A stretch of DNA of 32,000 bases, taken from an archaeon (GTDB lineage: Archaea > Asgardarchaeota > Thorarchaeia > Thorarchaeales > Thorarchaeaceae). Position numbers and translations under genes: made by a program. The stretch spans positions 32,886 through 64,885 of the forward strand of contig JAJRZD010000035.1 of NCBI GenBank assembly GCA_024275415.1, read 5' to 3'. Of this stretch, positions 26,673 through 30,385 are shown one piece after another; the stretch's first letter is position 1, and each line of letters opens with the position of its first letter. Below the pieces are notes generated by a model. The model made no database searches and was not told the DNA's origin. It saw nothing but the letters and a program-made list of their open reading frames with translations.

Positions 26673-28028
26673 ATGGCGAATATGATGAATCCCGATAAAA
26701 GTGGTAATAATGGACCTTGCGATGCAGTACGAAATACTGCTGTTTCTGTTTTGTCCATTTACGATCAGAAGCGGAGGTCAATCCCATCAATTCTCAGAGA
26801 TTACAGAGAGGAGTCCGGACTTTCTCAGACAAATTACGCACAGGTCTATTTTCTTACAGCTTCCATTGTAAAACACCTGAACACAATTGATTATGTGTTA
26901 CATCGTTCTTTCAAGGAAATCAATCCACGAAACCTATCACCACGAATACGTAATCTGCTTAGGATTCTCACCTATCAAGCCCATTGGATAAAGGTATCAT
27001 CTAAGAACCTCATCAAGACCATTCCGGACGAGTTGAGTGGTTTTCTTCCATCGATACGAAAGATGTTCTCTCTCAACTTGGAGCGGATTTACGAGAAACT
27101 GCCAAAGATGACCCGATTGAGTCTTCAATATTCACATCCGACTTTCATAGTAGAAACACTGCTCTCCAATATGAGCGAGGCTGAAGCCATCTCACTGATG
27201 CGAGCAAACAATGGTGCTAGCACTTCTTATTTCCGTGTGAACAATCTCGTTTCTACACCTCCGAATGTGTTAGAGGAGTTAGGTATTCTTGGTGTCGAGA
27301 TGAAAGAAGATGCTGACGTACACGGCCTCTATCGGATAGAATCAGGGCTTCACACTCTAGTCCAATCCGCGGCATTCAAGGAGGGGGCTGTACTGATTCA
27401 GGACAAGGCAAGTGTCCTTGCTGTCAAAGCTCTCTCTCCTCAACCTTCTGAGTTCGTTTGGGATGCATGTGCAGCTCCGGGTATGAAGACACATCTCATT
27501 TGGGAATCCATGAAAGGTACCGGAAGACTTGTGGCCACCGACCTGAGTCCCAAGCGTATCTCACTGGCACGCGAAAGAGCTGGCTCCATTGGACTGGATG
27601 AAGTGGAATGGATTCACGAGGACGCCTGCTTGTGCCCGATACAGGACGCGGACAAAATTCTCATCGACGCACCATGCACATCCACAGGAATTCTGAGAAG
27701 TCATCCTTCTTACAAATGGAAACTGAACAAGAAGACATTGTTCTCAATAATGGCGATACAGAACAAACTATTGGAGGGCATCATCTCTGGCTATCGTGAG
27801 AATCCGGGCACTGAGATTGTGTATTCTGTATGCTCGATTCTTCCTCACGAAGGGGAGAGTCAGATAGATACTATTCTAGACACATACAATGTCGAATTGA
27901 TAGACTTTCCTGGGCCTGGGACTACTGGATATCCTGGCTTCACATGTTCTGCCGGAGTTCGAAGGCTCTTTCCATCAACCCATGACACTGATGGGTTCTT
28001 CATCGCAAAACTCCGAATTACGCGGTGA
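26673..28028 (+). CDS. RsmB/NOP2 family RNA (cytosine-C5) methyltransferase with NusB-like N-terminus
   Basis: DACAAPGMKT, ILIDAPCTSTG and VYSVCS (both catalytic Cys present), HDTDGFFIAKL. Confidence 0.9.
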   Translation: MANMMNPDKSGNNGPCDAVRNTAVSVLSIYDQKRRSIPSILRDYREESGLSQTNYAQVYFLTASIVKHLNTIDYVLHRSFKEINPRNLSPRIRNLLRILTYQAHWIKVSSKNLIKTIPDELSGFLPSIRKMFSLNLERIYEKLPKMTRLSLQYSHPTFIVETLLSNMSEAEAISLMRANNGASTSYFRVNNLVSTPPNVLEELGILGVEMKEDADVHGLYRIESGLHTLVQSAAFKEGAVLIQDKASVLAVKALSPQPSEFVWDACAAPGMKTHLIWESMKGTGRLVATDLSPKRISLARERAGSIGLDEVEWIHEDACLCPIQDADKILIDAPCTSTGILRSHPSYKWKLNKKTLFSIMAIQNKLLEGIISGYRENPGTEIVYSVCSILPHEGESQIDTILDTYNVELIDFPGPGTTGYPGFTCSAGVRRLFPSTHDTDGFFIAKLRITR

Positions 28029-29016
28029 TCCTTCTCTCAACGGAATCCATGACACGTCGTGCAAACTCCTCATCGTCCTTGTAACTCCATGGGATACTTA
28101 GGAACAGTTTCTGCGCAGTCACTATCAAATCCTTATCCCTTTTAACAAGCGCCTTGAAGACAAGCCTGGTCCATTTGAAACAAGGATGTCCTTGAAAATC
28201 ATCTTTGACATCAGGGTTCTCTGCAGTCCGTGCTAGGTATTCCATCCCGTCCTTGGGCTTTCCAAGCATCAAATCTGATAACGACGCCATACATGCGAAA
28301 ATGACACCTTGCTTCGTCATCCCTGATGAGAGGAATTTCTCTGCCCCCTCTCGATACTCTCTCCCTTTCTTCTCGTAAAGCATCTTTCCATGCGAAAAGC
28401 TAAGATCCTTAGTATCACTCTCTACCTGTGCTTTCTTTAGGCTGATCCCTCCTAGAATTGATGCCTTTAGCTCTGCCTGCACCGCTGACAGGGGTGACAC
28501 TTCTATAGGTTTCTCTGCTGCTTCTACTATCCTCTCACCTAACGCGACTAGATGTTTCTTGATATCTGGGTTTCGAAGTGAAGGTTCCTCGTCAGAAATA
28601 CCCGTTTCATAAATGGTTCTTCCATAGGTGAAAAATGAATATGCTCTGTCTACAAGATTATGCTTCAATGCGAACTCCACTCCCATCGAAATGCTGTTCA
28701 ATGCATTATCGAGTTCGCTCAGATTCTCGAACTGGCTTGCTGCGTCCATTAGCCATGGGAACGCATCAGTACTCCCTTCTGCCATACTCTCTCTACCCCG
28801 CGCTAGAGATGTATATGCGTCCACGCAGATGACCGCAAGATCTGGTTGAAGACATTTTTGCGTCACTTCTGGGATAGGTGGGTTTTGCCCCCGGAGTCTG
28901 CAATGGTAGCCAGTCCCAGTCTGGTCAAGCCAGTCACATTTCGTTTCTTCCATGCTTTCCAACTCGCACAAACTTGGTAATATCTGTTGGTCTGATAGTG
29001 TGTTGTTTTCGAGCAT
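28018..29016 (-). CDS. Hypothetical alpha-helical protein: Cys-rich N-terminus, SNAP/TPR-like repeats, internal WH2-like motif
   Basis: 332-aa ORF; the real start may be ATG 28953 (MEETKC). Fold calls are pattern-based inference. Confidence 0.75.
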   Translation of the reverse strand: MLENNTLSDQQILPSLCELESMEETKCDWLDQTGTGYHCRLRGQNPPIPEVTQKCLQPDLAVICVDAYTSLARGRESMAEGSTDAFPWLMDAASQFENLSELDNALNSISMGVEFALKHNLVDRAYSFFTYGRTIYETGISDEEPSLRNPDIKKHLVALGERIVEAAEKPIEVSPLSAVQAELKASILGGISLKKAQVESDTKDLSFSHGKMLYEKKGREYREGAEKFLSSGMTKQGVIFACMASLSDLMLGKPKDGMEYLARTAENPDVKDDFQGHPCFKWTRLVFKALVKRDKDLIVTAQKLFLSIPWSYKDDEEFARRVMDSVERRITA

Positions 29017-29488: not shown

Positions 29489-30385
29489 TCATGACAGACT
29501 TATCGCACGTGAACGCCAATCCCTGATAGTGTATCGTAGGGACTCGATGTCACCTTCCTGTCGTTTCCAATCGCTTGCCGCTCGCCGCATCTGAAATATC
29601 AACGCGCCACCCCTTGCGAGTTTCTGTTCGAGAATATCTACGGCCTTCTCAAGTGCCTCTACGATAGTTTCCTTCCCCTCAGATTTTTCCACTACTTCCT
29701 CAAGTGAATCGAATATCTCTGGTGGTTGCATGTTTTTCCATTTGTCCTCAGGAATTGCTACTTCCCTGTATTTTTTCGCAGGGATGACTGTATTTGAGTC
29801 CTTCATCTCTAACTCACTCAGTGCTTGTAGGCTGTCAACTGCATCAATCACTTGAGATCGGTCAATGAGCAGGATAGATGCGATTTCGTCGATTTTCAAT
29901 TGCCGTCGTTCGAGAATCAGATTGAATATCCTATGCTGGATATCTCCGACCCGCTTTATCACTTCTGCAAGCGTATCGGTAGCCCCTTCCTTGCCAAGAA
30001 GAACTTCTGTGGCAGCTTCTGACAGTTGTTTGATGTCGTCTTTCAGTCGTACGATGGTAAGGTCTGCTTTTTTGAGTTCCTCTTTTAACGAGTCATCGAC
30101 TTTTGGTTTTTGCTTTGCAAAGTCCTCTGTCTTCTTTGACCTTAACCCTTGCACTTCTCTCCCAACTGCGTCTAGTGCTCCCTTTGTCCTTGATAGTTCT
30201 GCCCGAAGCGCCTCAATCTCAGAGTCTTTCTCAGCCATCTGTTTCTCCATGCTCTGTATCTGTTCGTGTAGCTGTGAAGCTCGCCTTTGTGCTCCACTCA
30301 GCTGTGCTTGCAATGATTCCAACCTCTGGTTCAGCTGGGTAATCTGCATGGTCTTTTCCCGGAGACGTTCGTTCGGATCGGACAT
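29489..30385 (-). CDS. Hypothetical protein: long coiled coil, winged-helix-like domain, C-terminal helical domain
   Basis: Heptad repeats at aa 1-125; 'HRIFNLILERRQLKIDEIASILLIDRSQVIDAVDSL' is an HTH-like pattern. Confidence 0.75.
   Translation of the reverse strand: MSDPNERLREKTMQITQLNQRLESLQAQLSGAQRRASQLHEQIQSMEKQMAEKDSEIEALRAELSRTKGALDAVGREVQGLRSKKTEDFAKQKPKVDDSLKEELKKADLTIVRLKDDIKQLSEAATEVLLGKEGATDTLAEVIKRVGDIQHRIFNLILERRQLKIDEIASILLIDRSQVIDAVDSLQALSELEMKDSNTVIPAKKYREVAIPEDKWKNMQPPEIFDSLEEVVEKSEGKETIVEALEKAVDILEQKLARGGALIFQMRRAASDWKRQEGDIESLRYTIRDWRSRAISLS

What the first reader, a model, noticed from the sequence alone, without database searches (positions are those of the whole stretch)
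28426..28482. WH2-like actin-binding motif in an archaeal protein
Seen: aa 179-197, VQAELKASILGGISLKKAQ, lies in a probable linker between two helical halves. Established: WH2 motifs of WASP/WAVE/WIP follow L-L-x2-I-x2-G-x2-L-[KR]-K, for example WAVE-type LLEAIRKGIQLRKV as I recall it. This peptide matches the L, I, G, I, L and KK positions and differs at the second Leu (K). Inference: if the genome is Asgard and encodes actin, this may be an undescribed actin-monomer-binding regulator. The motif is short, so chance similarity is possible.
Basis: partly seen in the sequence, partly recalled or inferred. Interest (0 to 1): 0.72.

Follow-up and report, generated by a model that had tools for sequence, protein, structure and literature searches.

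The report
Conserved WH2-like motif, Thorarchaeota scaffold protein
A Thorarchaeota-only helical scaffold protein carries, in a floppy loop between its two halves, an almost invariant peptide that resembles the eukaryotic WH2 actin-binding motif; the resemblance is real but statistically weak, and actin binding is untested.

Summary

A single match of this pattern is no more than chance (0.6-1.4 expected per genome). The Pfam WH2 model scores it only 12-17 bits against a cut-off of 23.1.

Its conservation is not chance:
- Across 122 homologues, which fall to about 50% (one to 35%) identity, the 18 residues are the best-conserved stretch of the protein (entropy 0.66 bits).
- They sit between hypervariable, indel-rich flanks (2.2 and 2.6 bits).
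- Synonymous codon changes are saturated, so selection acts on the protein.

Two AlphaFold models place the peptide in a low-confidence linker: a short helix, then an extended GG-x-x-LKKA.

The host is a single-copy protein of about 311 aa with a Cys4 hairpin and a TPR/SNAP-like solenoid. It was found in 66 of 76 genomes of the window's family-level group. The genome encodes eukaryote-like actin with an intact WH2-docking cleft, and gelsolins.

Against a true WH2: the helix is not amphipathic, Lys replaces the second Leu, a sister lineage has LKP, and no other protein carries the motif.

Verdict: a real, strongly selected linker motif. Actin-monomer binding is the best single guess (about 30%). 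Other windows of this scan noted WH2-like micro-proteins in Lokiarchaeia, a different protein.

The parts
28018..29016 (-). Host gene: 332-aa ORF. The probable true start is M22 at 28953, giving 311 aa. It is a Thorarchaeota-specific 'hypothetical protein' family.
   Evidence: There are 166 homologues, mostly 311-315 aa, covering 92-94% of the ORF. No Pfam or NCBIfam family matches.
28513..28938 (-). N-terminal domain (aa 27-168): a beta-hairpin and helix carrying four conserved Cys (C27, C39, C55, C64), then three TPR-like helical hairpins.
   Evidence: Alignment invariants. AF2 pLDDT 67-94. VIA-align gives Z 12.2-12.4 at rmsd 2.2-3.7 A over 94-109 residues to TPR domains.
28390..28512 (-). 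Inter-domain linker (aa 169-209), predicted disordered. The flanks around the motif are hypervariable and carry indels.
   Evidence: pLDDT 30-51 in two models. Entropy is 2.18 bits (aa 168-178) and 2.57 bits (aa 197-203). Indels are visible.
28426..28482 (-). The reported peptide, aa 179-197 (VQAELKASILGGISLKKAQ). The conserved core is aa 179-196 (28429-28482), family consensus [DE]-M-Q-A-E-L-K-A-[AS]-[VI]-L-G-G-[VI]-[ST]-L-K-K-[ATV].
   Evidence: Q180, E182, L183, K184, G190 and L193 are 97-100% conserved in 122 homologues. Pairwise codon differences are 762 synonymous against 371 non-synonymous.
28450..28494 (-). Short predicted helix (about aa 175-189) ending at the Gly-Gly. It stands where a WH2 helix would stand.
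   Evidence: DSSP gives helix 178-189 and 154-166 in 311-aa numbering, which is 175-187. Confidence is low. The hydrophobic moment is only 0.03-0.25.
28429..28440 (-). LKKA tetrapeptide (aa 193-196), the counterpart of the WH2 / beta-thymosin LKK[TV] element.
   Evidence: L193 100%, K194 93% (rest R/Q), K195 86% (rest mostly R), position 196 A/T/V. The Pfam WH2 HMM aligns aa 185-198 to its positions 10-23.
28021..28389 (-). C-terminal all-helical domain (aa 210-332). Together with the N domain it most resembles Sec17/alpha-SNAP, gamma-SNAP and Get4.
   Evidence: AF2 pLDDT 82-93. Foldseek top hits are alpha-SNAP/Sec17/Get4 at E 0.011-0.016. VIA-align gives Z 14.1 (Sec17) and 12.7 (gamma-SNAP). 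The C domain also exists alone or with other linkers in other Asgard lineages.

Best explanation
The peptide is a strongly selected short linear motif displayed on the disordered loop that joins the two halves of a Thorarchaeota-specific TPR/SNAP-like scaffold protein. The most likely single mechanism is WH2-type binding of one actin monomer. [quoted passage not shown] Gly189-Gly190 would end the helix. The extended I/V-S-L-K-K-A would run up the actin surface, with L193 in a hydrophobic pocket and K194/K195 facing the acidic Glu27-Asp28 pair of the organism's own actin. With a single motif per protein, the expected role is to tether or deliver G-actin to whatever the scaffold binds, or to sequester it, not to nucleate filaments. 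Shown here: the motif, its conservation, its exposed setting, and the presence of an intact actin target. Inferred only: every step of the binding itself.
For: 1. The pattern matches 7 of 8 canonical WH2 positions with WASP/WAVE spacing: L at -10, I/V at -6, G at -3, I/V at -2, then L-K-K.
2. It is the most conserved segment of the protein (0.66 bits) and is embedded in hypervariable flanks. Synonymous sites are saturated (762 synonymous against 371 non-synonymous codon differences). This fits contact with an extremely conserved partner, and Thor actins are 92-98% identical to each other.
3. Two AF2 models give pLDDT below 50, a short helix and then coil. This is the usual WH2 anatomy, and the peptide is not packed into either domain.
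4. For isolated 32-aa peptides of 8 homologues, the only Pfam family reported is PF02205 WH2, in 6 of the 8 (E 0.014-0.11). For whole proteins, 15 of 124 members report WH2, best E 0.0041.
5. In a six-frame scan of the whole 3.5-Mb genome, the top WH2 hit is this peptide.
6. In the reverse direction, a profile of the linker finds only one chain among 177,635 PDB sequences: the N-WASP tandem-WH2 construct 3m3n_W, E 0.008. It is again first with a 25-residue profile.
7. The genome has actin whose cleft segments (LSLYASGRTTG; YSVWIGGSILASLKTFQKMW) and acidic GED patch are nearly identical to animal actin. It also has gelsolins.
8. An LKKT-like element (LRRV) of Thorarchaeota 2DGel is seen on actin in a crystal structure (PMC7444086; PMC9433394).
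Against: 1. No score reaches significance: 12-17.4 bits against the Pfam cut-off of 23.1. Genome-wide E is 1.04. 105 of 301 Asgard genomes and 6 of 14 control genomes give E<=1 noise hits.
2. The HMM and PDB alignments cover only G-[VI]-x-L-K-K-[AVT]-E, not the helix.
3. The regex frequency equals chance for one genome.
5. The second Leu is an almost invariant Lys. Q180, E182 and K184 are invariant, which is unlike WH2.
6. The sister family (35% identity) has L-K-P instead of L-K-K.
7. The motif occurs once per genome and only in this family. No tandem copies were found, and no longer forms of the host protein, so no fusion to profilin or gelsolin.
8. No actin-related gene lies nearby.
Confidence: 0.3

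Rival explanations
1. The motif is a docking peptide for a partner other than actin. Candidates include whatever the SNAP/Get4-like scaffold hands over to, such as an AAA+ or Get3-type ATPase. The likeness to WH2 would be coincidental.
For: The conserved residues include polar ones on every face of the helix (Q180, E182, K184), and the helix is not amphipathic. This suits a specific, enveloping interface better than a WH2 cleft helix. The WH2 likeness is statistically at chance level. The host fold most resembles adaptors that work with ATPases: Sec17/alpha-SNAP, gamma-SNAP and Get4. Protein-language-model features point to SNAP clusters (gamma-SNAP 0.88, 178 shared features).
Against: No candidate partner is identified. 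The neighbouring genes are housekeeping genes (RsmB-like methyltransferase, PDCD5-like protein, TatD, PAC2). The SNAP likeness is itself below threshold. The only families that sequence searches ever return for this peptide are WH2 entries.
Confidence: 0.25
2. The motif is an intramolecular latch. The conserved linker helix and LKK tail would dock reversibly into the concave groove of the protein's own TPR-like N domain or onto the C domain, setting the relative position of the two halves (autoinhibition or a hinge).
For: TPR grooves typically bind short peptides or helices. The N domain superposes on peptide-binding TPRs such as LGN, FLU-TPR and Tah1 (Z 10-12). The invariant Gly190 and near-invariant Gly189 fit a hinge. 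Conservation on all helix faces fits burial on docking.
Against: Neither AF2 model, including the one with 124 sequences and pTM 0.66, docks the segment; pLDDT stays at 30-48. More distant homologues keep both domains but have unrelated, longer acidic or proline-rich linkers without the motif, so the fold does not need it.
Confidence: 0.2
3. The motif is a structural element of the fold, or a membrane- or nucleic-acid-contacting basic patch, that the predictor fails to place. It has no role as a protein-docking motif.
For: The low pLDDT may reflect the narrow family rather than true disorder. The adjacent segment K-D-L-I-I-S-H-G-R (aa 203-211) is also conserved and leads into the C domain.
Against: Variable-length, hypervariable flanks lie on both sides. 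The helix has a low hydrophobic moment, which argues against an in-plane membrane helix. The motif is absent from distant homologues that have the same two domains.
Confidence: 0.1

Closest known systems
WH2 (WASP-homology 2 / verprolin-homology) motif, Pfam PF02205, WASP/WAVE/WIP type
   Same: A short helix is followed by Gly and an extended L-K-K-[AVT]. The spacing matches: L at -10, I/V at -6, G at -3, I/V at -2. It lies in a disordered region. WH2 is the only Pfam family reported for the isolated peptides (6 of 8), and its N-WASP construct is the only PDB sequence reported for the linker profile. The organism has actin with a conserved target cleft.
   Different: It scores 12-17 bits against a gathering threshold of 23.1. 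The second Leu is an invariant Lys. The helix is Ala-rich and not amphipathic, and carries invariant Q, E and K. It is found in an archaeon, as a single copy, inside a TPR/SNAP-like scaffold that is not known as an actin regulator. Binding is untested.
LKKT-like 'central WH2-like motif' of Asgard two-domain gelsolins (Thor 2DGel LRRV, Heim LKHV/LRRT, Loki LVDV; PMC7444086, PMC9433394)
   Same: It comes from the same organism group. A Leu-basic-basic-small element lies in an extended linker between two domains. For 2DGel, contact with actin is shown by crystal structures.
   Different: In gelsolins the four residues follow a gelsolin domain, and that domain supplies the cleft-binding helix. Here there is no gelsolin domain, and the preceding helix would have to do that job itself. 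The host family is unrelated.
WH2-like helical insertion of trypanosomatid profilin (PMC10907219)
   Same: It is a lineage-specific, conserved WH2-like insert in a protein that otherwise lacks one. It was recognised first by resemblance and later shown to bind the actin cleft.
   Different: There the host already binds actin and the insert only adds affinity. Here the host has no known actin link.
alpha/gamma-SNAP (Sec17; Pfam PF14938) and Get4/TRC35 (PF04190) alpha-solenoid adaptors, as the closest folds of the host protein
   Same: It is an all-helical, TPR-like solenoid of about 290 residues. These are the top Foldseek and VIA-align hits in two independent models. The nearest named language-model clusters are SNAP.
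   Different: Foldseek E is 0.011 or worse and TM is 0.22-0.32. Z of 14 is within the range the tool reports for unrelated helical repeats. The PF14938 HMM does not hit this gene, although 9 of 124 relatives hit it weakly. An N-terminal Cys4 hairpin and a 40-residue disordered insert are present here; I do not recall either in SNAP or Get4, and did not check.

Membership tests
WH2 motif (Pfam PF02205) | Score at or above Pfam's gathering threshold (23.1 bits) | tested here: not met
   The whole protein gives no hit at E<=1. Isolated peptides score 12.7-15.5 bits. The six-frame genome scan gives 12 bits, E 1.04. The best relative scores 17.4 bits, and none of 301 Asgard genomes is over the cut-off. 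15 of 124 members hit, best E 0.0041.
WH2 motif (Pfam PF02205) | L-K-K-[TV]-type element about 6 residues after the last hydrophobic helix residue, with Gly at -3 | tested here: met
   L193 (100%), K194 (93%), K195 (86%), A/T/V196, G190 (100%), I/V187 at -6 and L183 at -10 in 122 homologues. The sister lineage has L-K-P.
WH2 motif (Pfam PF02205) | N-terminal amphipathic helix presenting 2-3 large hydrophobic residues on one face | tested here: inconclusive
   A helix is predicted at about aa 175-189, and M/V179-L183-I/V187 form a stripe. But the hydrophobic moment is 0.03-0.25, no better than shuffles, and the -9 position is Lys.
WH2 motif (Pfam PF02205) | Lies in an exposed, intrinsically disordered region | tested here: met
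   pLDDT is 30-51 across aa 171-210 in two AF2 models. The flanks are hypervariable and carry indels.
WH2 motif (Pfam PF02205) | Binds G-actin in the cleft between subdomains 1 and 3 | not testable with these tools
I did not attempt it by any other route. Experiments are needed.
WH2 motif (Pfam PF02205) | A cognate actin with a conserved target cleft in the same organism | tested here: met
   Actin of 378 aa, 443 bits to PF00022. The cleft and acidic-patch segments are nearly identical to animal actins.
SNAP (alpha/gamma-SNAP, Sec17; Pfam PF14938), for the host protein | Match to the family HMM above its cut-off (25 bits) | tested here: not met
   No hit for this protein. The PF14938 scan of the genome hits other TPR proteins but not this gene. 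9 of 124 relatives score 12-15 bits.
SNAP (alpha/gamma-SNAP, Sec17; Pfam PF14938), for the host protein | SNAP fold: N-terminal twisted sheet of helical hairpins plus a C-terminal helical bundle | tested here: inconclusive
   Sec17, alpha-SNAP and gamma-SNAP are the top hits in both models, but only at Foldseek E 0.011-0.016, TM 0.22-0.32, and VIA Z 14.1 and 12.7 with rmsd above 14 A. The language-model score is 0.88 with 178 shared features.
TPR-like helical repeat (Pfam clan CL0020), for the N domain | Three or more helix-turn-helix repeats superposable on solved TPR domains | tested here: met
   Z 12.2-12.4 at rmsd 2.2-3.7 A over 94-109 residues to YfgM, FLU-TPR and BtubC. The family profile aligns with designed TPR repeats. 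TPR_8 and TPR_1 give sub-threshold hits in 37 and 21 of 124 members.

The most novel reading that the evidence does not exclude
Thorarchaeota evolved, inside the linker of an older Asgard SNAP/TPR-like adaptor, a genuine WH2-type actin-monomer-binding peptide. This would be a stand-alone WH2 outside eukaryotes and outside gelsolins. It would physically couple a trafficking-type scaffold to the actin cytoskeleton in a close archaeal relative of eukaryotes.
Probability: 0.2. Interest if true: 0.8.

Novelty: new variant of a known kind. Interest (0 to 1): 0.5.

Why it matters
In the papers I found, the described Asgard actin regulators are profilins and gelsolins, and the only WH2-like elements reported are four-residue LKKT-like linkers inside gelsolins. 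A helix-plus-LKK motif in an unrelated, lineage-wide scaffold protein would add a third type of actin-binding module to an archaeon. It would show that WH2-type binding can arise as a short linear motif before, or independently of, eukaryotes. It would also give a handle on what the SNAP/TPR-like protein does. The test is cheap: one synthetic peptide with two mutants against actin. If binding fails, the result is still useful. The family would then carry an unexplained, extremely conserved linker motif, and the case would show how easily WH2-like patterns arise by chance.

Tried and rejected
The job was counted. I did not try to get round this, so there is no verdict on binding.
2. Pfam and NCBIfam on the whole protein gave nothing usable.
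3. phmmer of aa 160-215 against PDB sequences gave no hit.
4. The search for longer, fused forms of the family found none. The motif profile in 61 Thorarchaeota genomes hit only this gene, once per genome, with no tandem or fused copies.
5. Gene neighbourhood: the arrangement of an RsmB-like methyltransferase (convergent) and a PDCD5-like dsDNA-binding protein (divergent) is conserved but says nothing about function.
6. I considered an LxGG protease or deubiquitinase cleavage site (I-L-G-G) and rejected it. The first Gly is Ser in 14 of 122 homologues, and the conserved span is far longer than such a site.
7. I considered a DNA or RNA element as the cause of conservation and rejected it, because third codon positions vary freely.
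8. Other sub-threshold WH2 hits look like chance matches: an M20 peptidase in this genome (L045), and a 733-aa protein of another Asgard genus where the match lies in a helix within what looks like a folded region (L046).
9. The profilin HMM found nothing in this genome, but it also found nothing in the controls, so this is uninformative.

Full report
**1. The observation**

The minus-strand ORF 28018..29016 encodes 332 aa. Residues 179-197 read VQAELKASILGGISLKKAQ and map exactly to window 28426-28482. Homologues begin at the second Met (MEETKC...), so the real product is probably 311 aa, from 28953.

**2. Who has this protein**

A search of 5.8 billion proteins gave 166 homologues. All named ones are 'hypothetical protein' of Thorarchaeota (one is labelled Promethearchaeota), and none carries a Pfam domain.

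An exhaustive HMMER search of 1.8 billion cluster representatives found only 10 clusters. One has 35% identity; two are much more distant, at 21-29%.

In whole genomes the gene is single-copy. It is present in 66 of 76 genomes of the window's own family-level group and in the one sampled genome of a sister family. In 224 other Asgard genomes, only weak matches to the C-terminal domain appear.

No longer, fused forms were found. Synteny is conserved with an RsmB-like methyltransferase (convergent) and a PDCD5-like protein (divergent), but this says nothing about function.

**3. Anatomy of the host protein**

Two AlphaFold2 models were made:
- 33 sequences: pTM 0.42.
- 124 sequences, 311-aa form: pTM 0.66, mean pLDDT 79.7.

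They agree:
- The N domain has a beta-hairpin and a helix carrying four conserved Cys, followed by three TPR-like hairpins.
- The C domain is all-helical.
- Between them, about 40 residues have pLDDT 30-51.
- Within that stretch, a short helix (about aa 175-189) is followed by coil.

The N domain superposes on solved TPR domains at Z 12.2-12.4 and rmsd 2.2-3.7 A.

For the whole protein, the best hits in both models and both aligners are Sec17/alpha-SNAP, gamma-SNAP and Get4. The scores are Foldseek E 0.011-0.016, TM about 0.3, and Z 14.1 and 12.7. The tool's own notes say such values can arise between unrelated helical repeats.

Language-model features also point to SNAP clusters (0.88, 178 shared features). 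The SNAP HMM does not hit this gene. It hits 9 of 124 relatives weakly, alongside Vps35, MIT and TPR noise.

I therefore call the host a TPR/SNAP-like scaffold. Family membership is unresolved.

**4. Is the motif more than chance?**

Taken alone, no:
A looser form occurs 3 times against 1.4 expected.
- The Pfam WH2 model, run over all six frames of the genome, does put this peptide first, but at 12 bits and E 1.04.
- Among 301 Asgard genomes, none exceeds the 23.1-bit cut-off, and 105 show E<=1 noise hits, as do 6 of 14 control genomes.

Taken across the family, yes:
- Over 122 homologues, aa 179-196 have a mean column entropy of 0.66 bits.
- The immediately flanking linker has 2.18 and 2.57 bits, and the two folded domains have 1.45 and 1.03.
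- Q180, E182, L183, K184, G190 and L193 are 97-100% conserved, and 108 of 122 homologues keep the strict pattern.
- The flanks differ in length.
- Third codon positions vary freely (762 synonymous against 371 non-synonymous pairwise codon differences), so selection is on the peptide.

The 35%-identical sister lineage keeps QAELK...G..LK but has Pro after the Lys. More distant homologues keep both domains but have unrelated, longer linkers. The motif is therefore a Thorarchaeota-level innovation in the linker of an older Asgard protein.

**5. How WH2-like is it?**

For:
- Seven of eight canonical positions match, with WASP/WAVE spacing: L -10, I/V -6, G -3, I/V -2, then L-K-K.
- The anatomy is a helix followed by an extended LKK element in a disordered region.
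- For isolated 32-residue peptides, WH2 is the only Pfam family reported, in 6 of 8 homologues at E 0.014-0.11.
- A profile of the linker finds exactly one of 177,635 PDB sequences: the N-WASP tandem-WH2 construct 3m3n_W, at E 0.008, helped by its three repeats. It is again first with a 25-residue profile, at E 1.

Against:
- Every score is below threshold.
- The alignments cover only G-[VI]-x-L-K-K-x-E, not the helix.
- The -9 Leu is an invariant Lys.
- The helix is Ala-rich, carries invariant polar residues on several faces, and has a hydrophobic moment of 0.03-0.25.
- The motif occurs nowhere else in 61 Thorarchaeota genomes, with no tandem copies; no longer, fused forms of the host protein were found.

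**6. Is the partner there?**

The genome encodes a 378-aa actin that scores 443 bits to Pfam Actin. Within the family-level group these actins are 92-98% identical.

The segments that form the WH2/gelsolin/profilin target cleft (LSLYASGRTTG; YSVWIGGSILASLKTFQKMW) and the acidic pair (GED against GDD) are almost the same as in animal actins in the same alignment. The assignment of these segments to the cleft rests on my knowledge of actin structures.

Two-domain and one-domain gelsolins are present.

Published crystal structures show LKKT-like linkers of Asgard 2DGels lying on actin (PMC7444086 and PMC9433394). In the papers searched, WH2-like elements in Asgard archaea are reported only inside gelsolins.

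**7. What could not be done**

I did not seek a way round it. There is therefore no computational test of binding in this report.

**8. Interpretation**

It is established that the peptide is a strongly selected, exposed linker motif. What it binds is not established.

- WH2-type binding of an actin monomer is the single most specific and testable explanation. I put it at about 0.3. With one motif per protein, this would mean tethering, delivering or sequestering G-actin, not nucleating filaments.
- A docking site for a different partner: about 0.25.
- An intramolecular latch on the protein's own TPR groove: about 0.2. This is weakened by both AF2 models leaving the segment undocked, and by distant homologues lacking the motif.
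- A misjudged structural element: about 0.1.

**9. Relation to earlier notes of this scan**

First readers also flagged this gene as SNAP-like (e1-5424270, e1-5424263). My fold searches agree with that as a resemblance only.

Other windows of the scan reported WH2-like 50-aa micro-proteins in one Lokiarchaeia order; a later check trimmed the spread claimed for them and priced direct actin binding at about one in three (e1-2378705). That is a different protein in a different lineage, but the same caution applies here.

**10. Verdict**

This is a new variant of a known kind: a WH2-like short linear motif in a new host and lineage. It is of moderate interest and can be settled by a simple peptide-actin binding experiment.

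Noticed in passing
L032:1889-1918 (+), L035:1563-1592 (-), L039:1563-1592 (-); six of the 41 Thorarchaeota genomes. Not in this genome's actin (L001:1477-2613).: In several relatives the actin gene carries a 30-nt insert with an in-frame stop between the codons for ...TFQ and KMW.... The insert forms a hairpin with compensating base changes; z is about -4.9 in two of three folds. It looks like a tRNA-type (bulge-helix-bulge) mini-intron. The scan has already reported this (e1-705118).
   Followed up: partly
window 28513-28938 (-) and 28021-28389 (-): The host protein has four conserved N-terminal Cys (C27, C39, C55, C64) on a hairpin plus helix, and two more in the C domain (C242, C279). This suggests a Zn or Fe-S site. 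Its overall fold is closest to Sec17/alpha-SNAP, gamma-SNAP and Get4, but not significantly so.
   Followed up: partly
window 29489-30385 (-): A 298-aa protein with a long N-terminal coiled coil (weak Pfam hits to tropomyosin, ADIP, FlaC and others) and a winged-helix-like C-terminal part (weak TrmB and POLR3C_WHD hits). It lies two genes away and is syntenic in 7 of the 12 relatives' loci examined.
   Followed up: no
window 28018-28028: The 3' ends of the convergent RsmB-like methyltransferase gene (26673-28028, +) and the motif-bearing gene (28018-29016, -) overlap by 11 bases, stop codons included. The arrangement is conserved in 12 related genomes.
   Followed up: partly
L046:1501-1548 (+), within ORF L046:400-2601; orthologues in nine genomes of one other Asgard genus: A protein of about 733-742 aa gives the highest WH2-HMM scores in the phylum (up to 19.5 bits, HMM positions 4-19). 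The match (…ALFGAIRAFNSL…) is helix-only, lacks an LKK element, and lies inside what looks like a folded region. It is probably chance.
   Followed up: partly
L070:612-1601 (-) and P0129: Distant homologues of the host protein in other Asgard lineages keep the Cys-rich N-terminus, the TPR part and the C domain, but have long acidic or proline-rich linkers without the motif. A stand-alone C domain of 166-203 aa also exists (L069, L071, P0128).
   Followed up: partly
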